Part shown: positions 1 to 25,470 of the stretch, piece by piece | How positions within the stretch are numbered: position 1 is the stretch's first letter | How the letters are laid out: every line of letters starts with the position of its first letter | Assembly: GCA_020341815.1 (NCBI GenBank) | Contig: CP070837.1 | Location: 216,209-280,208 of the forward strand | Source: Candidatus Omnitrophota bacterium | Lineage (GTDB): Bacteria; Omnitrophota; Gorgyraeia; JAFGHF01 | DNA length: 64,000 nucleotides | Direction of reading: 5' to 3' | Notes under the pieces: generated by a model | What the model saw: only the letters and a program-made list of their open reading frames with translations | What the model was told of the DNA's origin: nothing | The model's database searches: none | Made by a program: the position numbers and the translations under genes

Positions 1-507
1 AGTGTTGCTGAGGGCACTAATGACGGTATCGTGGCCCCTCTAATTTATCTGATTTTGGGAGGGCCTGTTTTGGCAATAGCTTATAAGAGCATAAATACGC
101 TTGACTCCATGTTGGGCTATAGGAATGAGAAGTATCTTCAATTCGGCTGGTTTGCGGCAAAATTGGATGATATCGCCAACTTTATTCCCGCGCGGATTTG
201 CGGATTTTTGATTTCGGTTTCTTCCCTCATTCGCGGAAAGCCGAAGGAATCTTATAATGTTATGCTGCGCGACGGGAAAAAGCACCCTTCACCTAATAGC
301 GGCATTTCCATTGCCGCTATGGCCGGGGCTTTAGGAGTGAGGCTGGGCGGGGCCTGTTCGTATCAGGGCGAAGTTTGTAATAAGGAATATATGGGTGAAG
401 AAAAAAGGGCTATTCAGCCTTATTTTATAAATGAGGCTTTGAATATAAGTTTGGTTGTTTCTTTAATGACGATTTCACTGGGGATATTGTTGAAATGGGC
501 TATTTAG
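1..507 (+). CDS. cbiB: Adenosylcobinamide-phosphate synthase CbiB/CobD family, 5'-truncated (frame open from nt 1)
   Basis: Frame 1 is open from the window edge and translates SVAEGTNDGIVAPLIYL..FAAKLDDIANFIPARI, the conserved CbiB core, then continues as the 31..507 ORF. Next to cobD. Confidence 0.8.
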   Translation, partial: SVAEGTNDGIVAPLIYLILGGPVLAIAYKSINTLDSMLGYRNEKYLQFGWFAAKLDDIANFIPARICGFLISVSSLIRGKPKESYNVMLRDGKKHPSPNSGISIAAMAGALGVRLGGACSYQGEVCNKEYMGEEKRAIQPYFINEALNISLVVSLMTISLGILLKWAI

Positions 508-1544
508 ATTTCGCACACGGCGGAAACATTTATGAAGTGAGGAGAAAATACAAGAAAGAAATAATCGACTTCAGCGCCAATATCAACCCCTTAGGCTTAC
601 CCGAAAGAATAAAAGAAAATATCATTAATAATTTTAATAGAATTCTGCATTATCCCGATCTCCAAGCAGAGAAACTCACTGAAAAGCTCGGCAGCTATTG
701 GAAAATAGATAAGGAAAATATTCTGCTTGGTAACGGCTCTATCGAGCTTATTTATCTTATCTTTTCCGCCTTTAAGCCGAAGTCCACTTTTATACCCGTG
801 CCTACATTTTCCGAATATGAACGGGCCGCCAGAAGCGCAAATAGTAAAGTGCAATTCTTACGGCTTAAGGAGAAAGATAATTTCAATCTGCCGGAGAGAA
901 TCGATGCCGGCGGGGCGGATATCTTTTTTCTCTGTAATCCCAATAATCCCACGGGCAATCTCATCCTGCAAAAGCAAAGAGCGGATAATTTGGCTAAATT
1001 GACCGTTATCGATGAGACCTTTATGGATTTCCTGCCTGATCAGGCCGCTCACAGCTTAATCGGTGAAGCGCCGAAAAATAAAAAGATTATTGTCTTGAGG
1101 AGTTTTACCAAGTTCTTTGCCCTTCCCGGCTTAAGAATCGGCTATCTCATAGCGCATAAAGATACTGTCATGAGATTACGGAAATATCAGCTTCCCTGGA
1201 GCGTCAATACCTTTGCTCAAATGGCCGCAGAACTCGCCTTAGATAATGAGGCATATGCGCAAAAGACCAATTGCCTTATAAAAAGAGAAAGAAGCTTTCT
1301 TTTTAGAGAAATTGCAAAAATCAACAGGTTATCCCCGTATCCCTCGCGAGCCAATTTTATCTTGATTAAGATAAATGATAAAGAAATCAACTCTTCTCTA
1401 TTAAAAGAGAGATTGATTGAAAAGGGAATACTCGTAAGGGATTGCGCGAACTTTCGGGGGTTAAGCGGTAAATTTATTCGTATAGCGGTGCGCGCCCGCG
1501 GAGAAAACCAGAGGCTTATTCAGGCCTTGGGGAGGGTAATATGA
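495..1544 (+). CDS. cobD: L-threonine-O-3-phosphate decarboxylase (class I/II aminotransferase fold)
   Basis: 349 aa. N-terminal HGGNIYE motif and PLP-aminotransferase architecture typical of CobD/CobC-type Thr-P decarboxylase. 13-nt overlap with cbiB. Confidence 0.75.
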   Translation: MGYLDFAHGGNIYEVRRKYKKEIIDFSANINPLGLPERIKENIINNFNRILHYPDLQAEKLTEKLGSYWKIDKENILLGNGSIELIYLIFSAFKPKSTFIPVPTFSEYERAARSANSKVQFLRLKEKDNFNLPERIDAGGADIFFLCNPNNPTGNLILQKQRADNLAKLTVIDETFMDFLPDQAAHSLIGEAPKNKKIIVLRSFTKFFALPGLRIGYLIAHKDTVMRLRKYQLPWSVNTFAQMAAELALDNEAYAQKTNCLIKRERSFLFREIAKINRLSPYPSRANFILIKINDKEINSSLLKERLIEKGILVRDCANFRGLSGKFIRIAVRARGENQRLIQALGRVI

Positions 1545-2464
1545 GCAAAATTATTAAAGATTTGAAGAGATTGCTTTGTCAGGCAGTAGAAAGAAATCCC
1601 TATAAAAATTTACTTTTTTCGGGCGGGCTGGATACTTCGATTCTGGCAAGCTTACAGCCCAAATTGACCGGGATTACGATAAGCTTTGGAGATAAGGCCG
1701 AGGACATTCATTATTCAAGCAGCTTATCGCGCCTCTTCAAGATAGAACATTTTCACCGCAAAGTAGATATCGATGAGGCGCAAGAGGCAATTCCCGAAGT
1801 GATAAAAATTCTTAAATCTTTTGATCCGGCCATCCCCAATGATCTGGCGGTCTATTTCGGTCTTCTCAAGGCCGAAGAGCTCAAAATCCGCGAAATAGCC
1901 ACGGGTGATGCCAGTGATGAGTTATTCGGCGGATATTCATTTATGAGAGAAATAGATGATTTGGAAAGTTACATTCGAAGGATTTCTCAAAATTTAAAGT
2001 TCAATTCCAACGACCTCGGCGACTATTTCGGCATTAAAATAATCCAGCCTTTTGTCGATAAGGATGTTTTAGATTTCGCTTTAAAGATACCCAGAGAATT
2101 AAAAATAAGGCAGGGCAGGGGAAAATGGATATTGCGCAAGGCCTTTGAGGGCGTCCTGCCGTATGAGGTCGCCTGGCAGGACAAAAGGCCCCTGGAATAC
2201 GGCTCGGGATTTAATAGAATACGCGAAATTATTTCTAATAAGATATCCGATGAAGAGTTTGCCCAGAGGCCCCCTTTTATGAAGTTTATCAGTAAAGAAC
2301 ACTTCTATTATTACAAAATATATCGGCAAGTAGTGGGAGAAATCCCGAAAGTAAAGGAAGGCCAGGCGAGTTGTCCCGGCTGCGGCGCAGGAATGAAAAA
2401 GGAGAGTTTTCATTGTCAGATTTGCGGCTATGTTATAAATAACACTGAGCGCACTGAACAATAG
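1541..2464 (+). CDS. Asparagine-synthetase-like PP-loop ATP pyrophosphatase (AsnB C-terminal domain only) with C-terminal Cys4 zinc ribbon
   Basis: 307 aa. SGGLDTS PP-loop motif, no glutaminase domain. C-terminus CPGCG..CQICGY. The last 8 codons lie inside the CACTGAR repeat element. Confidence 0.6.
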   Translation: MSKIIKDLKRLLCQAVERNPYKNLLFSGGLDTSILASLQPKLTGITISFGDKAEDIHYSSSLSRLFKIEHFHRKVDIDEAQEAIPEVIKILKSFDPAIPNDLAVYFGLLKAEELKIREIATGDASDELFGGYSFMREIDDLESYIRRISQNLKFNSNDLGDYFGIKIIQPFVDKDVLDFALKIPRELKIRQGRGKWILRKAFEGVLPYEVAWQDKRPLEYGSGFNRIREIISNKISDEEFAQRPPFMKFISKEHFYYYKIYRQVVGEIPKVKEGQASCPGCGAGMKKESFHCQICGYVINNTERTEQ

Positions 2465-2530
2465 CACTGAAACCACTGAAGTTTTTATTCAGTGTTTTCA
2501 GTGTAACAATCTCAGTGACTTCAGTGATAC
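2441..2530 (+). promoter_or_regulatory. CACTGAR heptad-repeat / hairpin element, copy 1
   Basis: Four direct CACTGAR heptads with 2-6-2 nt spacers at 2443, 2452, 2465, 2474. Then three to four inverted TCAGTG copies ending CTTCAGTGATAC, directly upstream of RBS AAGGAGG. Same architecture as 7494..7549. Confidence 0.55.
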
Positions 2531-2546
2531 AAGGAGGTGATAAGAG

Positions 2547-2654
2547 ATGAAAAAAACAAAGGTCAGGAAGAAAAAAGGTATTGTCGCTTTTCGTAAAAAA
2601 TGCAAAGCCAGCGGAACAGGCCTTTCGCATTACATTCTTTTAGATAAAAAATAA
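2547..2654 (+). CDS. Small lysine-rich peptide, 35 aa (MKKTKVRKKKGIVAFRKKCKASGTGLSHYILLDKK); candidate precursor/leader peptide
   Basis: Not in the ORF track because it is shorter than 60 aa. Strong RBS AAGGAGGTGA 8 nt upstream of ATG. Sits between the AsnB-like gene and the radical SAM/SPASM gene. Confidence 0.35.
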   Translation: MKKTKVRKKKGIVAFRKKCKASGTGLSHYILLDKK

Positions 2655-2669
2655 TCGGGAAAATAGGTT

Positions 2670-4064
2670 ATGGAAAATTACGCATCATCGCGAGGGATTT
2701 ATTTCAATACAGGAGGAGGCATTCCGCTTCAACCCGTAGATATCAGACATAAAGATTATATTGGATTGGTATCGGCGGATTCTGCCTTCTGGGCATTAGT
2801 TAAGAAGCATCAGCTTGCTAAGCTCTTGGCAAATCCGTCTTTTTTGCGGAAATACCGCAATAAAGAGAGGGCTTTCCTCAAGGAAATAAATACCTTAAGA
2901 TTTGGCCTGAAGCCTTCGGCAGTTTATTTTAATCCTACCGACCGCTGTAACCTGAACTGTTCTTATTGTTATATTCCGGAACAGTTGCGTCGAGGCGGCA
3001 GGGATATGCCCTCTAAGAAATTATTTGAGGCACTTGAAATTTTAAAGGTTTATTTTGGGGCAACTTTACCTAAAGGCCAAAAGGCGCAGATTATTTTTCA
3101 TGGCGCCGAACCAATGCTTAATAAAGAAGCGATTTTTTCGGCTGTGAATACATTCGCAGGAGATTTTCACTTTGGCATTCAGACAAACGGCACGCTCATG
3201 AGCGATGAAGCAATAGAGTTTCTGACTTCAAGAAAAATAAGCATCGGGCTATCGCTCGACGGCCATATTGCAAGGGTGGCCGATCGCCTGCGCAAGAACT
3301 GGAGCGGCGAGGGCGTTTTTCAGAAAGTAGTAAAGATAATAAAGGCCCTGAGAGGATATGAAAATTTTTCGGTAATTTGCACAGTAACAGGGGAAAATAT
3401 GCTCTCGCTCGTTAAAATAGTCGAGTTCTTGCACAGGATGGAAGTGCCCGTCTGTATGCTGAATCCTGTGCGTTGCACTTTAGCGGCCGCCCGTAAAACT
3501 AAGCCTCAAGACCATCGTTTGGCAAAGAATTATCTAAAGGCACTGGATCGCACCTACGAACTTTACAAGAAAACCGGTCGACGGCTTATAGTAGCGAATT
3601 TTGCCAATGTCCTGATGGGTATTATTGCCCCCGCCGGCCGCAGGCTGATGTGCGACATCTCGCCCTGCGGCGGCGGAAGATGCTTTTTTGCGATTTCAAG
3701 CAATGGAAATTTATTCCCTTGCAGCGAATTCATTGGTCTAAGAAGATTTAAAGGCGGTAATATTTTTAGTGATGATATTAGTAGAGTTTTGCAAACGGAG
3801 CCCTTTAGGCTTGTTACAGAGAGAGATATCGAGAACATTAGGCCTTGCTCTGATTGTGCCATAAGACATTTTTGCGGTTCGCCCTGTCCCGCAGAAGCAT
3901 ATGAGATGAATGGCTCTATGCAGACACCGGGTGCCTTCTGCGAGCTTTACGAGGAACAGGTTCGTTATGCCCTGCGCTTGATTGCCGATGGCAAAGAAGA
4001 CGCATATCTCTGGAATGGATGGAATAAAGGAATCGTTACTACTTTGAAAATAACCGATATTTAG
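2670..4064 (+). CDS. Radical SAM enzyme with C-terminal SPASM domain (anSME/PqqE-like maturase family) and about 95-aa N-terminal extension
   Basis: 464 aa. CNLNCSYCY (CxxxCxxC) at residue 93. C-terminal Cys-rich SPASM region CSDC..C..C. Confidence 0.8.
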   Translation: MENYASSRGIYFNTGGGIPLQPVDIRHKDYIGLVSADSAFWALVKKHQLAKLLANPSFLRKYRNKERAFLKEINTLRFGLKPSAVYFNPTDRCNLNCSYCYIPEQLRRGGRDMPSKKLFEALEILKVYFGATLPKGQKAQIIFHGAEPMLNKEAIFSAVNTFAGDFHFGIQTNGTLMSDEAIEFLTSRKISIGLSLDGHIARVADRLRKNWSGEGVFQKVVKIIKALRGYENFSVICTVTGENMLSLVKIVEFLHRMEVPVCMLNPVRCTLAAARKTKPQDHRLAKNYLKALDRTYELYKKTGRRLIVANFANVLMGIIAPAGRRLMCDISPCGGGRCFFAISSNGNLFPCSEFIGLRRFKGGNIFSDDISRVLQTEPFRLVTERDIENIRPCSDCAIRHFCGSPCPAEAYEMNGSMQTPGAFCELYEEQVRYALRLIADGKEDAYLWNGWNKGIVTTLKITDI

Positions 4065-4076
4065 GAGTCTTGAGAA

Positions 4077-4190
4077 TGAACCCCGCTCTTCCCAACACCA
4101 CGCCTTGCATAAGAGATATGGGTGAAGGCAATAAAAGGAAGGGCTGGGGATATAACCTTGGCATTACGATGAAAGGAAGGGCGGGGTGAA
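4077..4190. repeat. MITE-like intergenic repeat, copy A (TIR GAACCCCGCYCTTCC ... GGAAGGGCGGGGTGAA)
   Basis: 114 bp, near-perfect 15-bp terminal inverted repeats. Internal TTGCATAAGAGATATGGG core shared with copies B and E. The 3' TIR supplies RBS AGGAAGG and the GTG start of the 4186 gene. Confidence 0.8.
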
Positions 4191-4854
4191 AGCATTTGTT
4201 TCCTGGAGCGGAGGAAAAGATGGTCTGCTCGCCTTCTATAAGGCAAAGCAAGATCGAGAGGTAGAGATAGTTTATCTTTTAAATATGATTTCTGAAGATG
4301 GCACCCATTCCCGCACTCACGGCATATCGGCAGCTCTTCTTCGGGCTCAGGCCGATGCTTTAGGTCTGCCTATTATCCAAAAGAAAACTGCCTGGGGAGA
4401 TTACGAGGAGGAGTTCAAAAAAACCGTCTCGGTTTTAAAAAAGGAAGGCATTCAGGCGGGAGTGTTTGGGGATATCGATCTTCAGGAGCATCGCGATTGG
4501 GTGGAGAGGGTTTGTAGTGAGACGGGTATTAAGCCCTTTTTTCCTTTATGGCAGATGGAAAGAGAAGATATTATGCGTGAGCTTATCGCTTCCGGGTTTG
4601 AGGCTACTGTTGTGGCAAGTAAGCGAGATGAGCTGGGCCCCGAGTGGCTGGGGCGAAAAATAGACGAAGCATTTATAAAAGACTTGAAGGGCTTAGGAGG
4701 AATTGACCTATGCGGAGAGGCCGGCGAATATCACAGCTTTGTAAGCGGCGGGCCCCTTTTCAATAAGAAGATAGAACTCTCAAAGACGAGAAAGGTCAAA
4801 AAAGATATAGGCTGGTTTTTGGATGTAATGGATTATGAGATTTGCGCTAAGTAG
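4186..4854 (+). CDS. Dph6/MJ0570-like PP-loop ATPase (DUF71, diphthine-ammonia-ligase-like adenine nucleotide alpha hydrolase)
   Basis: 222 aa. N-terminal SWSGGKDG PP-loop. C-terminal CGEAGEYHSF..PLFNKKI matches the CGEGGEYETF..PLFKKKI signature of the Dph6/ATPBD4 family. GTG start inside the repeat. Confidence 0.7.
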   Translation: MKAFVSWSGGKDGLLAFYKAKQDREVEIVYLLNMISEDGTHSRTHGISAALLRAQADALGLPIIQKKTAWGDYEEEFKKTVSVLKKEGIQAGVFGDIDLQEHRDWVERVCSETGIKPFFPLWQMEREDIMRELIASGFEATVVASKRDELGPEWLGRKIDEAFIKDLKGLGGIDLCGEAGEYHSFVSGGPLFNKKIELSKTRKVKKDIGWFLDVMDYEICAK

Positions 4855-5689
4855 AATTGTTATTTTATTATCTTTGTTGATACTGCCTGTTTCGGCTAAG
4901 GCGGAAACTCCCCGGAGGATAATTTCTCTGGCTCCCTCGATAACGGAAAGCTTATATTATCTGGGGGCAGAGAAAGAATTGATAGCGGTGAGCTCCTATT
5001 GCAATTATCCTGAAGGTGCCCGCCAGAAGGAAATAGTCGGTACTTTAACCAATCCCAATATCGAGAAGATATTTTCCCTTTCTCCGGACTTGGTTCTGGC
5101 GGTCGAGGGGTTAAATCGCACCCAGACCATAGAGAAATTGAAAAGTTTAGGAATAAAGATAGAGGTCTTTGATGCGGGTGACAGCTTCGATGATGTTGTA
5201 AAGAACTTTGTTCAATTGGGAAGATTGATAGGCAAGGAAGATAAGGCCGAGGAAATAGTCGAGCAGGTAAAGAAGCAGATAAAATCTATCAATAACAGGC
5301 TTAAAGGGAGATGGCGCCCGCAGGTCTTCTGGCAGGTGGGCGCCAGGCCTTTGGTCGGGGCCGGCGAGAAATCATTTGCCAATGAGTTTATCCGCTACGG
5401 GGGCGGTGAGAATATCTTTTCCGATACCGCCGCCAGATACCCCCGCCTAAGCCGCGAAGAAGTCTTAAGCAGAAATCCGGATGTAGTCATACTGGTTACA
5501 ATGGGGGACATCACAGAGAAAGAAAAGGAATACTGGCAGAAGTTCAAAGATTTATCGGCCGCTAAGGCCAGAAGGATTTACATAGTTGATGCCGATAAGG
5601 TCTGCCGGCCGACGCCGGTGAGTTTTTTAACAGGTTTAAAGCAGGTAGCGAGGGTTCTTCATCCCGAAGTTTTTGCACAGGAGCGTTAA
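4835..5689 (+). CDS. Periplasmic substrate-binding protein, class III (BtuF/FhuD-like) of a cobalamin/siderophore ABC importer
   Basis: 284 aa. Signal peptide, then ISLAPSITE..AVSSYC motif. Followed by FecCD permease and ATPase. Confidence 0.7.
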   Translation: MRFALSRIVILLSLLILPVSAKAETPRRIISLAPSITESLYYLGAEKELIAVSSYCNYPEGARQKEIVGTLTNPNIEKIFSLSPDLVLAVEGLNRTQTIEKLKSLGIKIEVFDAGDSFDDVVKNFVQLGRLIGKEDKAEEIVEQVKKQIKSINNRLKGRWRPQVFWQVGARPLVGAGEKSFANEFIRYGGGENIFSDTAARYPRLSREEVLSRNPDVVILVTMGDITEKEKEYWQKFKDLSAAKARRIYIVDADKVCRPTPVSFLTGLKQVARVLHPEVFAQER

Positions 5690-5691
5690 CT

Positions 5692-6651
5692 TTGGATAAA
5701 AAGCGTCTTCGGATATTTATTTTACTGTTTGTGATATTTGTTGTCAGTATTATTGTTTCTGCTTTTTCCGGAGCAAGCCAGCTTAAGCTTGACACGGTAG
5801 TAGGAAAAGATATCCTCTGGAAGATTCGTATTCCCCGGATTGTTCTGGGGTTGCTTGTGGGCGGGGCGCTGGCTTGTTGCGGGGCGGTGTTTCAGGGGCT
5901 CCTGCGCAATCCTTTGGCCGAGCCCTATACCCTGGGGATTTCCGGGGCAGCTGCTTTGGGAGTAACCTTAGGTGTTACTTCAGGTGCCAGCGGCATCTAT
6001 TTGCCTGTTTTTGCTTTTGCAGGGAGCGCCTTTAGTGTATTTCTGGTGTATAGCGTAGCGGCAAAAAAACGCTTTTCTAATCCCAGTTTGATACTGGGTG
6101 GGGTTATCCTGAGCTTTCTTTTTTCTTCCTTGGTCTTTTTAATCTTTTCTATTTCTAAGGCAGAGGATATCCACGGAGTAATGTTATGGCTGATGGGGGA
6201 CTTATCATCAGCTTCGGATTATTTAATAAGAATTATACCATTTTTTATTCTGCCGGGCTTGGGGTTGCTTTTCGTCTTCTCCAGTGAACTGAATATCCTT
6301 ACTCTGGGAGAGGAAAAGGCCCGACATTTGGGTGTCAATGCCGAACAGGTTAAAAAGATACTTTTTATTACTGCTTCCTTCATCACAGGGGCCTGCGTAG
6401 CTGCTTCCGGGATAATCGGTTTTGTAGGGTTGATAATTCCCCATTTTATGCGCAGGATAGTGGGCGTTGACCACCGCGCGCTTCTGCCTGTTTCTTGCAT
6501 AGCCGGGGCCGGCTTCCTTGTCCTTTGCGACAGTATAGCGCGCACCATTATCCGGCCGCTGGAGTTACCCGTAGGGGTGATAACAGGGATATTTGGGGGA
6601 GTTTTTTTCTTAAGCTTTTTGCTTAAAAGCAAACAATGGGAAATCTTTTAA
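5692..6651 (+). CDS. FecCD-family ABC permease (BtuC-like)
   Basis: 319 aa, TTG start, multi-TM. Family motifs PRI..LVG..L...GAV.Q.L.RNPLAEP. Confidence 0.8.
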   Translation: MDKKRLRIFILLFVIFVVSIIVSAFSGASQLKLDTVVGKDILWKIRIPRIVLGLLVGGALACCGAVFQGLLRNPLAEPYTLGISGAAALGVTLGVTSGASGIYLPVFAFAGSAFSVFLVYSVAAKKRFSNPSLILGGVILSFLFSSLVFLIFSISKAEDIHGVMLWLMGDLSSASDYLIRIIPFFILPGLGLLFVFSSELNILTLGEEKARHLGVNAEQVKKILFITASFITGACVAASGIIGFVGLIIPHFMRRIVGVDHRALLPVSCIAGAGFLVLCDSIARTIIRPLELPVGVITGIFGGVFFLSFLLKSKQWEIF

Positions 6652-7539
6652 ATGAATATACTGGAAGTTAAAGATTTAAGATGCGGGTATGATTGCGAGC
6701 GGGGAGCGGTGATAAAAGACATCTCTTTTTCTGTGAGGGAAGGAGAGTTCTTAGGTGTGATTGGCCCAAACGGGGCGGGAAAAACCACGCTCTTTCGGGC
6801 CGTAAGCGGGGCATTGAGGCCCTGGGAAGGAAATGTCTTTTATAAAGATAAAGAGATTTGCCGTATTGGTCCTCGTGATTTTGCCTCGCAGGTAGCGGTT
6901 ATGCCCCAGATGTTAGAGATAACTTTTTCCTTTTCGGTGGAGGAGTTTGTATTGATGGGACGCTTTCCGCACAGAACTAGATTTTCCGCTTTGCGAGAAA
7001 AAGACCTTGCGATATTGGAGGAGGTTTTAAGGCTAACCGATACCTTTTCTCTGCGCAGGCGCAAGATTCTTGAGCTCTCAGGGGGCGAGAGACAAAGAGT
7101 GCTTCTGGCCCAGGCTTTTGCCCAGGAACCGCAGCTTTTACTCCTGGATGAGCCCACCTTGCATCTGGATATTTCCCATCAGGTGCAAATTTTGGATTTG
7201 GTCAGGAGATTGAATCAAGAGAAAAGCCTGACCGTAATTATGGTCTTGCATGACTTGAATCTGGCCAGCAGTTATTGCGACCACCTGCTTTTACTTAAAG
7301 AGGGAAAGGTATTTAAGCAAGGCTCAGGGAGTGAGGTGCTTACTTATCAAAATATCGAAGAGGTCTATAAGACAGTGGTTGTGGTGAAGCAAAACCCCAT
7401 CAGCCATAAGCCGTATGTATTGTTAGTATCCGAGGAAGAACAAATGATGAGAAGGAAATTGAATAATACGGAGAGGAGGTGGGAAGAAAAAGAGACACTG
7501 AGAACACTGAGTAATAACACTGAAAGCACTGAAGAATAA
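6652..7539 (+). CDS. ABC transporter ATP-binding protein (BtuD/FecE-like) with repeat-encoded C-terminal tail
   Basis: Walker A GPNGAGKTT, signature LSGGERQR, Walker B LLLDEP. The last about 25 aa (NNTERRWEEKETLRTLSNNTESTEE) are encoded by CACTGAR copy 2. Confidence 0.8.
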   Translation: MNILEVKDLRCGYDCERGAVIKDISFSVREGEFLGVIGPNGAGKTTLFRAVSGALRPWEGNVFYKDKEICRIGPRDFASQVAVMPQMLEITFSFSVEEFVLMGRFPHRTRFSALREKDLAILEEVLRLTDTFSLRRRKILELSGGERQRVLLAQAFAQEPQLLLLDEPTLHLDISHQVQILDLVRRLNQEKSLTVIMVLHDLNLASSYCDHLLLLKEGKVFKQGSGSEVLTYQNIEEVYKTVVVVKQNPISHKPYVLLVSEEEQMMRRKLNNTERRWEEKETLRTLSNNTESTEE

Positions 7540-7566: not shown

Positions 7567-7983
7567 ATGCGCAGAATAGCCGGAATTATTATAGCGGTTG
7601 CCTTATGTCTTTCATCGATAGTTGCCTGGGCCGATAATGAAAACAGCAAAGGTATTATTGTAGAAATTGACTATGGAAGGCTGCGCCCATCTAGAACAAT
7701 AGAGGCCCCTTTGGCAAAAGACAGGACAATTCTTGAAGTGTTACAGAGCGTTGCTACGGTAGAAACACATCCTGTGGGCAAATATGTTATGGTTACTTCC
7801 ATTGACGGCGTCAAGGGTAAGCGCGGAGAGATGGCCTGGTATTATACGATAGATGGAAAATCAGCAGACAAAATAGCCTATTCAAAAGTCGCAGATAGCG
7901 CCAAACATATAAAATGGGTATATAAGAAGGATGTCTGCTCGCCAAAGGTGGATTGCTTAAATACAGCGAAAAAAGAAGATTGA
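7567..7983 (+). CDS. Small secreted protein (signal peptide, 138 aa), function unknown; possible corrinoid-binding accessory protein given context
   Basis: N-terminal signal peptide IIIAVALCLSSIVAWA. Lies between the btuD-like gene and the B12 riboswitch/btuB. The functional assignment is contextual inference only. Confidence 0.4.
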   Translation: MRRIAGIIIAVALCLSSIVAWADNENSKGIIVEIDYGRLRPSRTIEAPLAKDRTILEVLQSVATVETHPVGKYVMVTSIDGVKGKRGEMAWYYTIDGKSADKIAYSKVADSAKHIKWVYKKDVCSPKVDCLNTAKKED

Positions 7984-7992
7984 GTAAGTATC

Positions 7993-8117
7993 TAGCCGGA
8001 TAGCCAAGGGAAGTCTTCGTGAGATTCGAAGCGCTGCCCCGCAACGGTAATCCCTGAGCTTAGTCTTGAGGGGAGTCCGGACCATTGGTTATTTTGGGAA
8101 GCCCGCCGAAGGCGGGT
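7993..8117 (+). promoter_or_regulatory. Cobalamin (AdoCbl) riboswitch
   Basis: Matches to the consensus: AAGGGAA, GTGAGATTC, GCGCTGCCCCGCAACGGTAA (for GCnGnCCCGCAACTGTAA), and B12-box-like GACCATTGG...GGGAAGCC. Followed by hairpin CCCGCC-GAAG-GCGGG, then RBS GAGGGAGAAG and the TonB-dependent receptor. Confidence 0.8.
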
Positions 8118-8140
8118 AAATATTCTCGAGGGAGAAGAAG

Positions 8141-10027
8141 ATGAAAAGAAAGATTACAATTCTAATAGGTATGTTGGTTTTATTAAAGGCTAATTGCATT
8201 TGGGCCGAGGAAAAAACCTCTTCCTCTGCCGAGTATAATCTGGGAGAGGTGCTTGTTTCTGCCACGAAAGTAAAAAGCCATCAGGCCGAAGTGGGAAGCT
8301 CCTCCTCCGTAATTACCGCTCAGGACTTAGAGAAATCAGGTAAAAAAAGTGTTGGGGAAGTCCTGCGAAATGTTCCCGGAGTATCGGTTATGCAGAGCGG
8401 AGCATTTGGGGGAACGAGCTCCATTTATGTCCGCGGCTCAAAGCCGGGGCATACTTTGGTGATGATTGACGGCGTAGAGGTAAACGACCCCATCTCAGCC
8501 AGAGGCTATTTTGATTTCGCCCATTTGACGACCAATAATATTGAGCGCATTGAGATTGTGCGTGGTGCTCAATCCACTCTCTATGGCTCAAAAGCTATAG
8601 GAGGGGTAGTTAATATCATCACCAAAAAAGGCAAAGGCCGTCCCGGGTGGCAGTTTGCTTTTGAGGGCGGTTCTTACAATACTTTTCAGGAGACATTGAG
8701 CTTGAGCGGTTCGCAAAATAAACTAGATTATTCTCTCTCTGTATTGCGCCTGGATAGCGAGGGCATCTCAAAGACTTGTGACACTTCAGAAGATGACGAA
8801 TATGAGAATATCACATTCTCAAACCGCTTAGGGTATGAAGTTTCCGAAAGCAGCAAGCTTGATTTTGTCTTTCGCTTAACGGATGCCAAATATGATTATG
8901 ACGGCGGCGCATATCAGGATGATTCCGATAAAGTGGCATGGTGGAGAAATATAATAGGAAAGGCCGCCTTTAGTCAGGTCCTGACTTCAATCTGGGACCA
9001 TGAGCTTTCGTTTTCTTATGCGCAGACCAGAAGAAAATACAGAGATGACCCTGACTTTGACGATGCACCGGGCACAGGCCGCACGCACAATTGGTATAAG
9101 AGCAGAATAGGAAAGACCGAATGGCAGCATAACATCTCTGCCCTTGATTGGTACACATTGACTTGCGGATTGGAGTACGAAGAGGAAAGGGGCTTTGCCG
9201 ATGGGCGGGTTTCTTCGAACAGGCTTGATAGAAGAGCCGTGGATAGTAAAGGCTGCTATCTGCAAAATCAGTTTAAGTGGCGGGAGAGTTTATTTATTAT
9301 CCCGGGCCTGAGAATAGACGACCATGAACTCTTCGGCACCGAGACCACCTATAAAGTATCTACTTCTTATATTATTCCCAGGATAAAGACCCGCCTTAAG
9401 GGCAATTGGGCTACGGGTTTTAAGGCGCCTTCTCTGTATCAGCTCTTTCATCCCCGATATGGCAACGAAGCTCTCAGGCCCGATGAGAGCAGAAGTTATG
9501 ACTTTGGATTTGAGCAGGGCTTACTTGATGATAAACTGACTTTTGGATTGACCTACTTTCATAATGATTTTAAGAATATGGTTGAGTGGGATACGAATGC
9601 TCTAATATATAACAATATCGACAATGCCCAGACAAAGGGTTTTGAGCTGGAAGGCTCCTTTAGGCCGATAGAGGACTTAACGCTAGGAGCTAATTACACA
9701 TATACTAAAACTAAGGACAAAGACACGGGCAGAAAGTTAACCGAAAGGCCGGAAAATCAGGTAGGCCTTGATTTGAACTGGGCCTTTCTTGAAAAAGGAA
9801 ATGTTAATTTAATGGCAGCCTATGTCGGGCACCGTTGGGATAATAGCGCAAATACGCGCAAAGTAAAGCCATATACTAAAGTTGACTTGTCCGCCTCTTA
9901 CGATTTGACGGAAACTTTTCAGATTTTCGGCAGGATAGACAATCTTTTTGATAGAAACTACCAGCAAATTCGCGGATACGCCACTCCCGGAAGATCTTTT
10001 TATGCCGGCAGCAAAGCGAGTTTTTAG
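8141..10027 (+). CDS. btuB: TonB-dependent outer-membrane receptor, cobalamin-type (riboswitch-controlled)
   Basis: 628 aa. Signal peptide, TonB box EVLVSAT, plug domain motifs, C-terminal ..YAGSKASF terminal Phe. Immediately downstream of the B12 riboswitch. Confidence 0.7.
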   Translation: MKRKITILIGMLVLLKANCIWAEEKTSSSAEYNLGEVLVSATKVKSHQAEVGSSSSVITAQDLEKSGKKSVGEVLRNVPGVSVMQSGAFGGTSSIYVRGSKPGHTLVMIDGVEVNDPISARGYFDFAHLTTNNIERIEIVRGAQSTLYGSKAIGGVVNIITKKGKGRPGWQFAFEGGSYNTFQETLSLSGSQNKLDYSLSVLRLDSEGISKTCDTSEDDEYENITFSNRLGYEVSESSKLDFVFRLTDAKYDYDGGAYQDDSDKVAWWRNIIGKAAFSQVLTSIWDHELSFSYAQTRRKYRDDPDFDDAPGTGRTHNWYKSRIGKTEWQHNISALDWYTLTCGLEYEEERGFADGRVSSNRLDRRAVDSKGCYLQNQFKWRESLFIIPGLRIDDHELFGTETTYKVSTSYIIPRIKTRLKGNWATGFKAPSLYQLFHPRYGNEALRPDESRSYDFGFEQGLLDDKLTFGLTYFHNDFKNMVEWDTNALIYNNIDNAQTKGFELEGSFRPIEDLTLGANYTYTKTKDKDTGRKLTERPENQVGLDLNWAFLEKGNVNLMAAYVGHRWDNSANTRKVKPYTKVDLSASYDLTETFQIFGRIDNLFDRNYQQIRGYATPGRSFYAGSKASF

Positions 10028-10039
10028 ATAGGCGGATGA

Positions 10040-10654
10040 ATGGGCAGTATGTTTAAAAATAGAGAGATGAGGATTGCCTTATTTTTATCTTTGGCAGGGC
10101 ATCTTTTATTTTTGGGGATGCCCGGAGGCGCGAGGCAGGACCTTAAGATAGAGAGGGACGATAAGGAACTGGAAATAGCCTATGTAAAAATAAAAGAGCC
10201 CACGCTTTTACCCAGAATAGATAATATGGGGGAGGAAAAAAAGCTAAAAGAGATTAAGGAGAAGCCAAAATCTCCTGCCGAGCCAGAGCCCGTCCCTGAA
10301 ACTGTAGCCATGGAGAAAGAACCGAGCTCAAGAGAAAAAATTGATGCGTTGGATTTAGCTCAGGAGGCAATGCTTCGCTATCAGGATATGGTAAAACAGA
10401 GGATAGAAGAGGCAAGGAGATATCCTTCCTGGGCAAAAAGACAAGGGCAGGAAGGAATTGTCTATTTAGACTTTATAGTTTTAGCCAATGGTCTGAGCCG
10501 GGATATCGAAATTATTTCCTCCTCCGGCTCAGGTATCCTTGATAAAGAGGCCGTTGCTACTATCCAAAGAGCCGGCCCTTTCCCGCCCATTCCTCAAGGA
10601 ATAAAGCGGAACTCTACCAGAATGCAGGTGGCTATTGTTTTCGCCTTGGATTGA
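10040..10654 (+). CDS. TonB family energy transducer (C-terminal TonB domain)
   Basis: 204 aa. N-terminal TM, Pro/Glu/Lys-rich linker, C-terminal domain YP..A...G.EG.V.L.F.V..G. Confidence 0.7.
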   Translation: MGSMFKNREMRIALFLSLAGHLLFLGMPGGARQDLKIERDDKELEIAYVKIKEPTLLPRIDNMGEEKKLKEIKEKPKSPAEPEPVPETVAMEKEPSSREKIDALDLAQEAMLRYQDMVKQRIEEARRYPSWAKRQGQEGIVYLDFIVLANGLSRDIEIISSSGSGILDKEAVATIQRAGPFPPIPQGIKRNSTRMQVAIVFALD

Positions 10655-10739: not shown

Positions 10740-11519
10740 ATGGCAGTAAAAAAGTTTAAATATATCTACGGGCCGGTGCCTTCCTGGAGACTGGGTGAGT
10801 CCTTAGGGATAGATTTGCTCTCCGGAAAAAATAAGCCCTGCTCCTTTGACTGTATCTATTGTCAGTTGGGTAAAACTTATCCCCGGACACTAAAGAGAAA
10901 GCTCTATGTCCCTACCGAGAAAATTATTGAGGAGATAAAAGCCTTACCCGATATTCATATAGATTATATTACCTTCTCCGGAAGAGGAGAGGCCACACTG
11001 GCCAGCAATCTGGGTGAGGCCATAAAGGCCCTGAGGCGCTTGCGCAGAGAGCCGATAGCGGTCTTGACCAATGCCTGTTTGCTCAACGATAAGAAGGTAA
11101 GAGAAGAGCTTGCCCTGGCAGATTTGGTAGCGCTAAAATTGGACGCCCCTTCGCAGGGATTGTTGAACTCGATAAATCAGCCGGCAAGAAGAGTAAAGTT
11201 TGCCGCTATTTTGGAAGGCATCAAAGAGTTCAGGAAAGAATACAGAGGTAAGCTTGCCTTACAGATTATGTTTGTCAGGGGAAATGCCTCTTTTGCTGAA
11301 GATATCGCAAAGCTTGCCCGAGACATCCGGCCCGATGAGGTCCAGATTAATACACCCAGAAGACGCTCGCCTGTTAAGCCGCTTTCACGCAGTGCTATTC
11401 TCAAGATAAAGAAGGCTTTTTCAGGGATGAACGTGATTTCGGTTTACGATGCCAAACACAAAAAGACCCGTCCCTTAAGCGCAAAAGATACTAGACGCCG
11501 CCGAGGTAAGACTTTGTAA
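10740..11519 (+). CDS. Radical SAM domain protein, uncharacterised subfamily
   Basis: 259 aa. CSFDCIYCQ (CxxxCxxC) at residue 34 preceded by YGPVPSWRLGESLGIDL. No SPASM domain. Confidence 0.65.
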   Translation: MAVKKFKYIYGPVPSWRLGESLGIDLLSGKNKPCSFDCIYCQLGKTYPRTLKRKLYVPTEKIIEEIKALPDIHIDYITFSGRGEATLASNLGEAIKALRRLRREPIAVLTNACLLNDKKVREELALADLVALKLDAPSQGLLNSINQPARRVKFAAILEGIKEFRKEYRGKLALQIMFVRGNASFAEDIAKLARDIRPDEVQINTPRRRSPVKPLSRSAILKIKKAFSGMNVISVYDAKHKKTRPLSAKDTRRRRGKTL

Positions 11520-12379
11520 TGAAGACACGCTCAGAATGCATCCCCTGTTTTTTCAAGCAAGCCCTCTCTGCCGCTCGCCTGGCCGGTGCAAGCCTCACCC
11601 TGCAGAAAAAAATACTGAGTGAGCTCGTCCAGGAAATCCTTAAGTTCAATTTGGACTTGTGTCCCTCCCAGATGGGTAGAACCCTCTATCGCCTGGTAAG
11701 AAAAAGGACCGGCAAGCACGACCCCTTTAAGCAGCTTAAGGAAAAAAGCAACAAGATTGCCTTGAGCCTTTATCCCCGCCTTAAAGAAAGAATAGCCCAC
11801 TCAAAAAACAGGCTTTTGACTGCTACTAGCCTGGCCATCGCCGGAAATGTGATTGATTACGGTGTGGGGACCTCTTTAGATGTTGCCAGAGAGATAGAGA
11901 GGATACTTGCCGAGGAAAACAGGCTTGTTCGCAGAGAGACTAAAAAGATATTTAATTATTCCGGTTTTGAGAAGGCCGTAAAGAAAACAAAGAAGATTCT
12001 ATATTTAGGCGATAATGCGGGTGAGGCGGTATTTGACCGTGTTTTAATCGAAGAGCTGAAAGACAAAGAAATTACTTATGTGGTAAGAGGCGGCCCGATA
12101 ATCAACGATGTTTTAAGAGAAGATGCCGTATCTTGCGGAATAGACAGATGCGCCCGGATTATCTCTTCGGGTTGTGATGCCCCGGGCGTAATATTAAAAT
12201 TTTGCTCAAGCAGGTTTAGAAAAATCTATCACCAGGCGGAATTGATAATTAGTAAGGGCCAGGGTAACTTTGAGGCCTTATCGGGAAGAGGTGAACCCAT
12301 CTTTTTCCTTTTTAAGGCCAAATGCCCTGTAGTGGCTGAGCATTTAGGGTGTAAACTGGGAGATGTCATCTTAAAATAA
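11519..12379 (+). CDS. DUF89/ARMT1-like damage-control phosphatase family protein
   Basis: 286 aa. N-terminal C.PCF motif and overall DUF89 pattern. Start overlaps the radical SAM stop (ATGA). Confidence 0.6.
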   Translation: MKTRSECIPCFFKQALSAARLAGASLTLQKKILSELVQEILKFNLDLCPSQMGRTLYRLVRKRTGKHDPFKQLKEKSNKIALSLYPRLKERIAHSKNRLLTATSLAIAGNVIDYGVGTSLDVAREIERILAEENRLVRRETKKIFNYSGFEKAVKKTKKILYLGDNAGEAVFDRVLIEELKDKEITYVVRGGPIINDVLREDAVSCGIDRCARIISSGCDAPGVILKFCSSRFRKIYHQAELIISKGQGNFEALSGRGEPIFFLFKAKCPVVAEHLGCKLGDVILK

Positions 12380-25131: not shown

Positions 25132-25470
25132 ATGTATTACGTTTACCTTCTGATTAGCACAAAGGATAATAATCAATATATCGGATTCACTGAAGATATC
25201 GATAAAAGACTAAAAGAACATAATGCTGGTAAAGTAGTATCTACAAAGAATAGAAGACCATTAAAGTTAATTTATTTTGAGGCTTATCTAGATAAAAGAG
25301 ATGCTCAAGGTAGAGAGCAATTTCTTAAAAGTGGAGCAGGTAAGAGATTTTTACGAAAACAATTGAAACACCATTTGGAAACAAGTAATCGCGGGGTGGA
25401 GCAGCCCGGTAGCTCGCAAGGCTCAAAATGGACACAAAGCTCAAAGCCGACATTGCGGAGTCAGCTGTAG
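25132..25470 (+). CDS. GIY-YIG nuclease superfamily protein, YhbQ/UPF0213-like; C-terminal about 30 aa read through tRNA exon 1
   Basis: YYVYLLISTKDNNQYIGFTEDIDKRLKEHNAGK matches the YhbQ-type GIY-YIG signature. The ORF continues through the tRNA 5' exon (..NRGVEQPGSS..) to a stop at 25470. Confidence 0.65.
   Translation: MYYVYLLISTKDNNQYIGFTEDIDKRLKEHNAGKVVSTKNRRPLKLIYFEAYLDKRDAQGREQFLKSGAGKRFLRKQLKHHLETSNRGVEQPGSSQGSKWTQSSKPTLRSQL

What the first reader, a model, noticed from the sequence alone, without database searches (positions are those of the whole stretch)
1541..4854. Peptide + radical-SAM/SPASM + two PP-loop ATPases embedded inside a cobamide salvage/uptake operon
Between cobD and the btuF-like gene lie four tightly coupled ORFs:
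- An AsnB-C-terminal-like ATP pyrophosphatase (SGGLDTS) with a zinc ribbon.
- A 35-aa lysine-rich ORF (MKKTKVRKKKGIVAFRKKCKASGTGLSHYILLDKK) behind a strong SD.
- A 464-aa radical SAM enzyme with a SPASM domain and a 95-aa N-terminal extension (possible RRE).
- A Dph6/DUF71-like PP-loop ATPase.

Small peptide plus rSAM/SPASM is the hallmark of RiPP maturation (ranthipeptide, streptide, triceptide, mycofactocin-type). The peptide has a single Cys and a C-terminal HYILL aromatic patch, compatible with a cyclophane or C-terminal modification rather than multiple thioethers.

Alternatively, the two amidating ATPases and the rSAM may act on corrinoid intermediates, given the location between cbiB/cobD and btuFCD. 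Either reading is uncharacterised.
Basis: inference. Interest (0 to 1): 0.75.

Follow-up and report, generated by a model that had tools for sequence, protein, structure and literature searches.

The report
Catalogued B12-operon peptide plus radical-SAM pair
The four genes are real, but they are two separate vitamin-B12-linked modules: a widespread, already catalogued but functionally unknown peptide plus radical-SAM pair (CbpA/CbpB), sitting between two ATP-dependent enzymes typical of B12-salvage operons.

Summary
All four ORFs exist exactly as described, between cobD and btuFCD.

**Peptide and radical SAM enzyme.** They match curated NCBIfam models above cutoff: TIGR04164 "modified peptide precursor CbpA" and TIGR04163 "peptide-modifying radical SAM enzyme CbpB". 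An identical protein is already named CbpB in NCBI.

- cbpA lies directly upstream of cbpB in 76 of 80 loci from many phyla. The other 4 are cut off.
- The 24-residue block VIAxRKxCxAxGxGLSHY[IV]L is nearly invariant and shows a clear coding signature.
- A cobalamin riboswitch precedes cbpA in 43 loci. Nearly all other loci sit inside cob/btu operons.

**The two PP-loop ATPases are not part of that unit.**

- The Dph6-like gene belongs to the "DUF71-B12" subgroup described in 2012.
- The short AsnB-like gene is its usual partner in salvage operons: 36 of 59 informative loci have DUF71 immediately downstream, and only 1 of 80 has cbpAB.
- One relative carries a deletion scar where cbpAB was lost.

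**Reading.** CbpB most likely modifies CbpA into a cytoplasmic accessory factor for cobamide metabolism, made when B12 is low. The chemistry and the role are unknown. No paper on it was found.

**Verdict.** The system is already catalogued and its function is open.

The parts
31..507 (+). 3' part of cbiB (adenosylcobinamide-phosphate synthase); the window starts inside the gene
   Evidence: 48% identity to a full CbiB that matches TIGR00380
495..1544 (+). cobD, threonine-phosphate decarboxylase
   Evidence: TIGR01140, 317.4 bits, cutoff 290.55
1541..2464 (+). Short AsnB-like PP-loop ligase: synthetase domain only, no glutaminase domain, C-terminal zinc ribbon. Module 2, the usual partner of DUF71-B12.
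   Evidence: PF00733. Below every NCBIfam cutoff. Nearest structures are the AsnB/ASNS C-domain and beta-lactam synthetase. DUF71 lies immediately downstream in 36 of 59 informative metagenome loci.
2464..2548 (+). 82-nt spacer with two stable hairpins. The second pairs with the cbpA Shine-Dalgarno sequence.
   Evidence: MFE -32.7 kcal/mol, z = -5.0, 0 of 200 shuffles fold as well. The spacer is shorter in related loci (coordinates). Hairpin conservation was not examined.
2547..2654 (+). cbpA, 35-aa precursor peptide: Lys-rich variable N-terminus plus the conserved block IVAFRKKCKASGTGLSHYILLDKK. Module 1.
   Evidence: TIGR04164, 48.3 bits, cutoff 35. Strong Shine-Dalgarno sequence. Orthologues in 76 of 80 loci. 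Coding signature.
2670..4064 (+). cbpB, radical SAM/SPASM peptide maturase. CxxxCxxC at C93/C97/C100, eight SPASM cysteines, conserved N-terminal domain (residues ~20-78). Module 1.
4186..4854 (+). DUF71-B12 subgroup PP-loop ATPase (Dph6-like). Module 2.
   Evidence: PF01902. Below the Dph6 cutoff, 126.7 vs 197.3. Motif GEAGEYH with His where PF0828 has Glu188, as defined in PMC3541065. Overlaps the btuF start.
4835..7539 (+). btuF, btuC, btuD: corrinoid ABC importer
   Evidence: PF01497, best NCBIfam hit BtuF. ORFs. Orthologues recur in related loci.
7567..10654 (+). DUF4430 protein, TonB-dependent receptor and TonB-like protein: the outer-membrane side of corrinoid uptake
   Evidence: PF14478. 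ORFs. Homologues of the 628-aa ORF called as a TonB-dependent receptor recur next to btuFCD in related loci; the L082/L083 copies carry Plug and TonB-dependent-receptor Pfam domains. The window's receptor and TonB ORFs were not themselves scanned.

Best explanation
The region is a composite of two separable cobalamin-linked modules inside a corrinoid salvage/uptake operon.

**Module 1, cbpA-cbpB.** This is a self-sufficient two-gene unit.
- CbpA is a ribosomal peptide whose whole 24-residue block VIAxRKxCxAxGxGLSHY[IV]L is the functional unit.
- Inferred steps:
  - CbpB binds CbpA, probably through its N-terminal strand-rich domain.
  - CbpB cleaves SAM at the CxxxCxxC cluster and abstracts a hydrogen atom.
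  - CbpB then installs one modification inside that block. My preferred guess is a single intramolecular cross-link involving the invariant Cys or the His-Tyr pair.
- No protease, exporter or immunity gene travels with the pair, and the sequence is almost frozen across phyla. The product therefore most likely stays in the cell, as a cofactor-like or corrinoid-handling accessory factor.
- Shown: the pair is made when cobalamin is low, because it sits behind cobalamin riboswitches or inside cob/btu operons.
- It also occurs in loci that carry only salvage and late-step genes. So its role probably lies in steps shared by producers and salvagers: nucleotide-loop assembly, adenosylation or corrinoid trafficking. 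It is less likely to concern ring synthesis or cobalt insertion.

**Module 2, short AsnB-like ligase plus DUF71-B12.**
- These are two PP-loop ATP pyrophosphatases without a glutaminase domain.
- They normally sit side by side in salvage-type operons.
- Inferred: they adenylate carboxylates on salvaged corrinoids, for example to re-amidate or remodel them. They do not act on the peptide.

In the window's lineage, cbpAB lies between the two ATPases.
For: **Family assignment**
- CbpA and CbpB score above the curated cutoffs.
- An identical protein is named CbpB by NCBI.
- 2568 CbpA-like peptides were found, many already named CbpA.

**The pair is the conserved unit**
- cbpA lies upstream of cbpB in 76 of 80 loci. 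The other 4 have less than 200 nt upstream.
- CbpB is at least 59% identical across more than 10 phyla.

**The peptide is translated and constrained**
- Codon-position entropy is 0.56, 0.35 and 1.53 bits.
- The shortest CbpA is 29 aa, with only 2 residues before VIAYRK.
- Tandem double peptides repeat the entire block (L037).

**B12 link**
- The Rfam cobalamin riboswitch lies directly upstream of cbpA in 12 of 19 loci.
- An nhmmer profile finds it in 42 of 80 loci, with 6 more truncated. L030 is added by Rfam.
- The commonest neighbours are CobQ, CbiB, CobT, CobS, CobA, CbiA, CobU, CbiC, CbiM, CobC, CbiX, CbiD and BtuFCD.
- In L021 the pair sits next to RACo, a corrinoid reductive activator.
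- No transporter or protease family appears among the recurrent neighbours.

**Enzyme class**
- Foldseek's top hit is CteB over 450-475 columns, including the N-terminal domain.

**The modules are separable**
- AsnB-like loci: 36 of 59 have DUF71 immediately downstream, 57 of 80 carry B12 genes, 1 of 80 has cbpB, and none has CobQ or CbiA.
- Pfam-annotated examples are L081-L084.
- L082 carries a deletion scar that joins the first codons of cbpA to the last codons of cbpB.
- In L004 the order is cbpA-cbpB-AsnBl-DUF71.
- The DUF71-B12 signature and its btuFCD/cbiB adjacency are described in PMC3541065.
Against: - No modification has been observed. The chemistry and the cellular role are inference.
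- The N-terminal domain of CbpB gives no Pfam hit, even at E<10.
- CbpB keeps all four Aux-I cysteines, like anSME. CteB lacks the first one. From my own recollection of the CteB work, that open site binds the substrate Cys. This weakens a CteB-style thioether mechanism.
- In 2 of the 9 loci where the AsnB-like gene directly precedes cbpA (L009, L011), the AsnB-like ORF reads in frame into cbpA. That could mean a functional link.
- The riboswitch association shows co-regulation, not participation in cobamide chemistry.
- The loci come from one species-representative collection, and most are MAG fragments. Whole-genome co-occurrence was not tested.
Confidence: 0.62

Rival explanations
1. This is the first reader's main reading: a single four-gene RiPP cassette. 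The AsnB-like and Dph6-like ATPases would tailor the CbpB-modified peptide, for example by lactam formation or amidation.
For: - The genes are adjacent in the window and in L002-L006, L009, L010 and L095.
- The AsnB-like ORF runs in frame into cbpA in L009 and L011. P0227 (349 aa) is named CbpA by NCBI.
- AsnB homologues do make lactams in lasso peptides and beta-lactams (established knowledge; weak HMM hits).
Against: - About 66 of 80 cbpB loci have neither ATPase, and many are stand-alone riboswitch-cbpA-cbpB units.
- Only 1 of 80 AsnB-like loci has cbpB, while 36 of 59 have DUF71 directly downstream.
- L011 has the AsnB-like gene but no DUF71. L001 has neither.
- L082 lost cbpAB by deletion but kept both ATPases.
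- In an AF2 model of the natural fusion, the CbpA tail is disordered (pLDDT below 35) and does not dock.
Confidence: 0.1
2. cbpAB encodes a secreted bioactive RiPP, such as an antimicrobial or a competitor-directed antivitamin, that happens to be induced under B12 scarcity.
For: - Peptide plus radical SAM/SPASM is the classic natural-product architecture.
- The best non-self HMM hits are ranthipeptide, dynobactin and SCIFF maturases.
- Multi-core precursors exist.
Against: - No exporter, leader peptidase or immunity gene recurs near the pair.
- The peptide has no signal sequence or long leader. The shortest form is 29 aa.
- The core is almost invariant across phyla, unlike diversifying antimicrobial cores.
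- CbpB is at least 59% identical across phyla.
Confidence: 0.06
3. cbpAB belongs to the B12 regulon only as a B12-sparing or regulatory function. It would be like other riboswitch-controlled B12-independent substitutes and would not take part in cobamide synthesis or salvage.
For: - Many copies are stand-alone two-gene units behind their own riboswitch, flanked by unrelated genes.
- Cobalamin riboswitches are known to control B12-independent isozymes (established knowledge).
Against: - In roughly half of the loci the pair is embedded inside cob/btu operons, at varied positions between biosynthetic genes.
- No B12-dependent process is known for which a 30-aa modified peptide could substitute.
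Confidence: 0.12
4. CbpB acts directly on a corrinoid or other small molecule, and the small ORF is irrelevant.
For: The pair is located among cobamide genes. Some SPASM/twitch radical SAM enzymes act on small molecules (established knowledge).
Against: - cbpA is present in every informative locus, shows a coding signature and has a curated family model.
- CbpB's closest structures are peptide-modifying enzymes.
Confidence: 0.03

Closest known systems
CbpA/CbpB family (NCBIfam TIGR04164 'cobo_pep' and TIGR04163 'rSAM_cobopep')
   Same: Both window proteins score above the curated cutoffs. The gene order, the peptide motif and the cobalamin-operon context are all the same. An identical protein is already annotated as CbpB.
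   Different: Nothing differs at the family level. In this lineage only, the pair lies between an AsnB-like gene and a DUF71-B12 gene. The family itself has no experimentally known product or role. Five literature searches found nothing on it.
CteB (SCIFF thioether maturase, PDB 5wgg/5why) and anaerobic sulfatase maturase anSME (4k36-4k39)
   Different: - Identity is only about 20%.
- CbpB is far below the SCIFF cutoff (112.6 vs 425) and the anSME cutoff (122.9 vs 349).
- The substrate has one Cys, not six, and there is no sulfatase nearby.
- CbpB keeps the first Aux-I cysteine, which CteB lacks.
Cofactor-type RiPP systems: PqqA/PqqE (PQQ) and MftA/MftC (mycofactocin)
   Same: - This is a resemblance in logic only.
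- Both have a very short, highly conserved precursor and a radical SAM/SPASM enzyme.
- Neither has an exporter, and both are housekeeping-like in distribution.
   Different: - There are no PqqB/C/D or MftB/D/E/F partner genes.
- The conserved residues are not at the C-terminus, unlike MftA.
- CbpAB is a two-gene unit under a cobalamin riboswitch.
- Whether a small molecule is excised is unknown.
- The comparison rests on established knowledge of those pathways, not on a test here.
DUF71-B12 subgroup of the DUF71/COG2102 PP-loop ATPases (de Crecy-Lagard et al. 2012, PMC3541065)
   Same: - PF01902 fold.
- His replaces the Dph6 catalytic Glu188 (window motif EAGEYH, subgroup motif ENGE[FY]H).
- Adjacent to btuF, in an operon with cbiB.
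   Different: - The motif has Ala where the subgroup has Asn.
- The 2012 paper does not describe the short AsnB-like partner in B12 gene clusters. It mentions AsnB only as a domain fused to DUF71 in a few Archaea. In my loci that partner is usually directly upstream.
- In that 2012 paper the function is still a prediction (pseudo-B12 salvage, CbiZ-like). I found no later characterisation.
Asparagine synthetase B / beta-lactam synthetase / lasso-peptide cyclase superfamily
   Same: The same PP-loop synthetase domain, with SGGLDTS and the TGDxSDELFGGY and KRPLEYGSG motifs. Foldseek E = 3e-15 to AsnB.
   Different: - It lacks the N-terminal glutaminase domain.
- It has an added C-terminal zinc ribbon.
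- It is far below every curated cutoff.
- Its genomic context is corrinoid salvage, not amino-acid or peptide biosynthesis.

Membership tests
CbpA/CbpB (TIGR04164/TIGR04163) | Radical SAM enzyme scores above the curated TIGR04163 cutoff | tested here: met
   700.6 bits vs cutoff 375, full-length match 1-428/428
CbpA/CbpB (TIGR04164/TIGR04163) | Small peptide scores above the curated TIGR04164 cutoff and lies immediately upstream of the enzyme | tested here: met
   48.3 bits vs cutoff 35. There are 15 nt between the cbpA stop and the cbpB start.
CbpA/CbpB (TIGR04164/TIGR04163) | Cobalamin operon or riboswitch context | tested here: met
   The window copy lies between cobD and btuF. Family-wide, 43 of 80 loci have a riboswitch and most of the rest sit in cob/btu operons.
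CbpA/CbpB (TIGR04164/TIGR04163) | CbpB actually modifies CbpA | not testable with these tools
   This needs co-expression and mass spectrometry.
Radical SAM / SPASM peptide maturases | CxxxCxxC SAM cluster motif plus a SPASM domain with cysteines for two auxiliary clusters | tested here: met
   C93/C97/C100 and C328, C333, C351, C393, C396, C402, C406, C424 are invariant in 56 sequences. PF04055 and PF13186 match.
RiPP recognition element (PqqD-like RRE) in the CbpB N-terminus | Three-stranded sheet plus helices that binds the precursor as an extra strand | tested here: inconclusive
   - AF2 predicts strands 20-23, 30-35 and 40-45 and helices 46-54 and 56-78, at pLDDT 81-87.
- The CteB alignment covers about 40 more residues than the anSME alignment.
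- No Pfam hit at E<10.
- No complex was modelled.
SCIFF/sactipeptide or ranthipeptide maturase | Above-cutoff match to ScfB or PapB, with a multi-Cys precursor | tested here: not met
   PapB 151.6 vs 340 and SCIFF 112.6 vs 425. CbpA has a single conserved Cys.
Anaerobic sulfatase maturase | Above-cutoff match, with a cognate sulfatase carrying C/S-x-P/A-x-R | tested here: not met
   122.9 vs 349.45. No sulfatase appears among the recurrent neighbours. CbpA has C-x-A-x-G, a loose resemblance only.
DUF71-B12 subgroup | PF01902 domain with ENGE[FY]H in place of the Dph6 motif EGG[ED]xE (His at the Glu188 position) | tested here: met
   The window has GEAGEYH aligned to PF0828 GEGGEFE. The motif definition is in PMC3541065. 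Asn is Ala here.
DUF71-B12 subgroup | Clustering with btuCDF and/or cbiB | tested here: met
   The gene overlaps the btuF start, and cbiB is in the same operon. The same adjacency appears in L006, L007, L009, L024-L027 and L082-L084.
Diphthine-ammonia ligase Dph6 | Curated equivalog score; the organism makes diphthamide | tested here: not met
   126.7 vs cutoff 197.3. The catalytic Glu is replaced by His. Bacteria lack diphthamide (PMC3541065).
Asparagine synthetase B (glutamine-hydrolysing) | N-terminal class-II glutaminase domain plus the synthetase domain; curated score | tested here: not met
   The protein aligns only to AsnB residues ~209-506. It scores 123.3 vs cutoff 499.
Lasso-peptide cyclase / macrolactam cyclase | Curated score and a partner leader peptidase | tested here: not met
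   44.1 vs 525 and 29.5 vs 300. No transglutaminase-like peptidase appears among the neighbours.

The most novel reading that the evidence does not exclude
The CbpB-modified CbpA peptide could be a so-far unrecognised component of cobamide metabolism. It might be a peptide-derived cofactor, or a corrinoid/cobalt-handling factor, that is needed when B12 is scarce. It would be shared by de novo producers and pure salvagers in hundreds of mostly anaerobic species. Separately, the short AsnB-like/DUF71-B12 pair could be an ammonia-dependent system that repairs or re-amidates carboxylates on scavenged corrinoids.
Probability: 0.4. Interest if true: 0.8.

Novelty: already known. Interest (0 to 1): 0.45.

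Why it matters
Cobamide biosynthesis and salvage are usually treated as almost fully mapped. Yet this two-gene unit appears in at least 579 species representatives, sits under direct cobalamin-riboswitch control, is more conserved than most cob enzymes, and has no known product.

If it takes part in cobamide handling, it would add a peptide-derived component to a textbook pathway. It would also matter for B12 cross-feeding in anaerobic communities such as Dehalococcoidia, Syntrophales and Omnitrophota.

The analysis also pairs the unexplained DUF71-B12 family with a constant AsnB-like partner in salvage-only operons. That narrows the hypotheses for both proteins.

The window itself adds no new kind of system. 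Its value is as a clean and testable example.

Tried and rejected
- **Literature.** Searches for CbpA/CbpB, TIGR04163/4, cobo_pep, the GLSHY motif, and RiPP + riboswitch + cobalamin gave nothing relevant. The Haft & Basu 2011 paper is not held.
- **Riboswitch in the window.** Rfam found no cobalamin riboswitch in the window, and neither did my nhmmer profile. The window starts inside cbiB, so the operon leader is outside it.
- **Modelling the complex.**
  - Reading through cbpA-cbpB failed because of two stop codons.
  - The natural AsnB-like-CbpA fusion P0227 was modelled, but its tail is disordered, so the result is uninformative.
- **RRE detection.** Pfam on the CbpB N-terminus gave no hit.
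- **CbpA against PDB sequences.** Only a chance-level match to antibody heavy-chain FR1/CDR1 (RLSCAASGFTFSHYIMM, E = 0.035) was found. I rejected it as coincidence.
- **Natural CbpA-CbpB fusions.** None among the 360 proteins retrieved.
- **Sulfatase-like motif.** CbpA has C-x-A-x-G against the sulfatase C-x-P/A-x-R. I noted it only as a lead; no sulfatase context exists.
- **Lower-ligand idea.** I considered that the Tyr or His could be a source of a lower ligand, such as p-cresol or an imidazole base. No evidence bears on it.
- **Small radical SAM at 10740-11519.** It is not homologous to the small radical SAM that recurs between DUF71 and btuF in related loci (no tblastn hit).

Full report
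**Observation**

- cobD runs from 495 to 1544. It scores 317 bits on TIGR01140, above the 290 cutoff.
- A 307-aa AsnB-like ORF follows at 1541-2464, overlapping the cobD stop. It has the SGGLDTS PP-loop and a CPGC...HCQICG zinc ribbon, and matches PF00733.
- After an 82-nt spacer comes the 35-aa ORF at 2547-2654, behind AGGAGGTG.
- Fifteen nucleotides later comes the 464-aa radical SAM/SPASM protein at 2670-4064 (PF04055 and PF13186).
- After 121 nt comes a 222-aa PF01902 protein at 4186-4854, which overlaps the start of btuF.
- Next come btuC, btuD, a DUF4430 protein, a TonB-dependent receptor and TonB.

**What the peptide and radical SAM enzyme are**

Both match curated NCBIfam equivalogs above cutoff.
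- The enzyme matches TIGR04163, "peptide-modifying radical SAM enzyme CbpB", at 700.6 bits against a cutoff of 375.
- The small ORF matches TIGR04164, "modified peptide precursor CbpA", at 48.3 bits against a cutoff of 35.
- A 100% identical protein, from a 1.55-Mb contig of a Candidatus Omnitrophota MAG, is already named CbpB by NCBI.
- A profile of CbpA peptides finds 2568 database proteins, many named CbpA by NCBI or JGI.

So the pair is a catalogued family. I found no paper on it in the held library.

**Comparative evidence for the pair**

- A scan of one genome per species returned at least 579 relatives of CbpB. I kept 80 loci. They come from the following groups, with CbpB 59-76% identical throughout:
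  - Omnitrophota
  - Elusimicrobia
  - Nitrospirae
  - Planctomycetota
  - Chloroflexota/Dehalococcoidia
  - Desulfuromonadales
  - Syntrophales
  - Desulfomonilales
  - Verrucomicrobiota
  - Acidobacteriota
  - Bacillota
- A cbpA ORF lies just upstream of cbpB in 76 of the 80. The other four have less than 200 nt of contig upstream.
- Across 73 distinct peptides the consensus is KK[DE]VIA[Y]RKxCxAxG[TA]GLSHY[IV]L[ML]DKK. R, C, both G, L and H are unvarying. Part of that invariance is imposed by my search pattern, but the tblastn-derived list shows the same.
- The block is translated. Nucleotide entropy at codon positions 1, 2 and 3 is 0.56, 0.35 and 1.53 bits, and invariant residues use all their synonymous codons.
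- The Lys-rich N-terminus varies in length. The shortest form is MKDVIAYRKNCSADGTGLSHYIMIVAKPK, 29 aa.
- Several Gammaproteobacteria, and locus L037, carry tandem peptides that repeat the whole block, including VIAxRK.

The 24-residue block is therefore the functional unit, rather than a long leader plus a short core.

**Link to cobalamin**

- Rfam places a cobalamin riboswitch (RF00174) directly upstream of cbpA in 12 of 19 loci tested.
- An nhmmer profile built from those hits finds one within 500 nt upstream of cbpA in 42 of 80 loci, with 6 more truncated. Rfam adds L030.
- Most of the remaining loci are inside cob or btu operons. Clustering the neighbours and annotating them gives:
  - CobQ
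  - CbiB
  - CobT
  - CobS
  - CobA
  - CbiA
  - CobU
  - CbiC
  - CbiM
  - CobC
  - CbiX
  - CbiD
  - tetrapyrrole methylases
  - BtuFCD
  - TonB-dependent receptors
- In L021 the pair sits next to RACo, the reductive activator of corrinoid proteins.
- Only L012 and the 2-kb L008 show no B12 link.
- The gene immediately next to the pair varies: CobT, CbiX, CbiM, CobC, BtuF or unrelated genes.
- No peptidase, exporter or immunity family recurs.
- About half of the copies are stand-alone riboswitch-cbpA-cbpB units.

**The enzyme**

- An AF2 model has mean pLDDT 80 and pTM 0.82. It shows the radical SAM barrel, the SPASM domain and a confident N-terminal domain: three strands at 20-45 and helices at 46-78.
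- Foldseek ranks CteB first, over 450-475 columns that include the N-terminal region.
- The N-terminal domain is compatible with a peptide-recognition element, but Pfam finds nothing in it. I score that as inconclusive.
- The cysteines C93/C97/C100 and eight SPASM cysteines are invariant in 56 sequences.
- Profile alignments show that CbpB keeps the first Aux-I cysteine (C328). anSME also has it, and CteB lacks it. From my own recollection of the CteB work, CteB's open site binds the substrate cysteine. CbpB would then be less likely to use that particular thioether mechanism. This is a lead, not a test.

**The two ATPases are a different module**

- The PF01902 protein scores below the Dph6 cutoff, 126.7 against 197.3.
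- Aligned to PF0828, it reads GEAGEYH where Dph6 has GEGGEFE. The His at the Glu188 position is the signature of the "DUF71-B12" subgroup.
- For that subgroup, de Crecy-Lagard et al. (PMC3541065) report that 75 of 102 members are adjacent to btuCDF-type transporter genes and 18 of 102 are adjacent to cbiB. They predict a role in pseudo-B12 salvage.
- The short AsnB-like protein belongs to an abundant family of about 308 aa. The family has no glutaminase domain and carries a zinc ribbon. Its nearest structures are the AsnB/ASNS synthetase domains and beta-lactam synthetase.
- Pfam-annotated contexts show cobD-AsnBl-DUF71-btuFCD-receptor without any cbpAB.
- In 80 AsnB-like-centred metagenome loci:
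  - 59 have room downstream, and 36 of those have DUF71 immediately downstream.
  - 44 have DUF71 somewhere in the locus.
  - 57 carry B12 genes.
  - None carries CobQ or CbiA.
  - Only one (L095) has cbpAB.
- Conversely, about 66 of the 80 cbpB loci have neither ATPase.
- The order differs in L004, which has cbpA-cbpB-AsnBl-DUF71. L011 lacks DUF71, and L001 lacks both.
- L082 has no cbpAB but carries a deletion scar. Its AsnB-like ORF ends ...KMKGK|DGWDRNTVTT..IK. The DNA matches the cbpA ribosome-binding site and first codons of L011, then jumps about 1.7 kb to the last codons of cbpB.

The two modules are therefore gained and lost independently.

**A caveat**

In L009 and L011 the AsnB-like ORF reads in frame into cbpA. 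P0227 is such a product and is named CbpA by NCBI. cbpA keeps its own start codon there. An AF2 model of P0227 leaves the CbpA tail disordered. I treat this as weak evidence for an interaction and give the four-gene-cassette reading about 0.1.

**Most likely mechanism**

Shown:
- cbpA and cbpB form an autonomous, strongly constrained pair that belongs to the cobalamin regulon.

Inferred:
- CbpB binds the conserved block of CbpA.
- CbpB makes one radical-mediated modification within C...GxGLSHY.
- The product remains in the cell. There is no exporter or protease, the sequence is frozen across phyla, and the logic resembles cofactor-type precursors such as PqqA and MftA.
- The product assists a step shared by producers and salvagers, because the pair also occurs in salvage-type loci such as this window and the Dehalococcoidia loci L022 and L035.
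- The AsnB-like/DUF71-B12 pair probably adenylates carboxylates on scavenged corrinoids. Both are PP-loop ligases without a glutaminase domain, and they sit in operons that lack CobQ and CbiA.

None of the chemistry is demonstrated.

**Novelty and score**

- The family is catalogued and named, and the very protein is annotated. So the finding is already known as an entity.
- It is not functionally understood. The strength of the riboswitch link and the AsnB-like/DUF71 pairing are useful, testable leads.
- Interest is 0.45. If the peptide proves to be a real component of cobamide metabolism, about 0.8.

Noticed in passing
window 25428-26036: A group I intron (RF00028, 80.7 bits, 25827-26036) is overlapped at its 5' end by a PD-(D/E)XK endonuclease ORF (25428-25964, PF11645). 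They lie between enolase and adenylosuccinate lyase. No tRNA is there, and the host gene of the intron was not identified.
   Followed up: partly
window 10740-12379: A small radical SAM protein (259 aa) is translationally coupled to an ARMT1/DUF89 damage-control phosphatase, directly after the TonB gene of the B12 uptake operon. Function unknown.
   Followed up: no
L002:5644-6372, also L003, L005, L010; L081:2189-2905: A different small radical SAM (about 240 aa, Fer4_12 plus Radical_SAM) recurs inside B12 salvage operons. It sits between DUF71 and btuF in L002-type loci. In L081 a similar-sized radical SAM with the same Pfam domains sits between btuF and btuC; its homology to the first group was not tested. 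The L002-type family has no tblastn match to the window's small radical SAM at 10740-11519.
   Followed up: partly
L081:7010-7651; L083:5325-6014: A Y1_Tnp (PF01797, IS200-like transposase fold) gene of 213-229 aa sits inside B12 salvage operons, next to the AsnB-like and DUF71 genes, in unrelated samples. It may be a domesticated gene.
   Followed up: no
L082:2080-2230: A deletion scar. The AsnB-like ORF ends with the first codons of cbpA fused to the last codons of cbpB, showing a clean loss of cbpAB in that lineage.
   Followed up: yes
L009:1708-2808; L011:6518-7711 (protein P0227): The AsnB-like ORF runs in frame into cbpA with no stop codon, giving an annotated 349-aa "CbpA". In an AF2 model the tail is disordered.
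   Followed up: partly
window 2464-2548: Two stable hairpins in the spacer before cbpA (z = -5.0). The second pairs with the cbpA Shine-Dalgarno sequence. The spacer contains repeated CACTGAA/TTCAGTG words. The spacer is shorter in related loci (coordinates). Hairpin conservation was not examined.
   Followed up: partly
L037:7777-7974; proteins P0241-P0254: Tandem double-core CbpA peptides (67-80 aa) in Sedimenticola and related Gammaproteobacteria. Each unit repeats the whole 24-residue block.
   Followed up: yes
window 7567-7983: A DUF4430 protein with a signal-like N-terminus lies directly after btuD. It may be a corrinoid-binding component of the uptake system.
   Followed up: no
L066:5159-5256: A TPP riboswitch lies immediately downstream of cbpB, and a second cobalamin riboswitch lies further on (11324-11492). 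This is a dense run of vitamin-controlled units.
   Followed up: no
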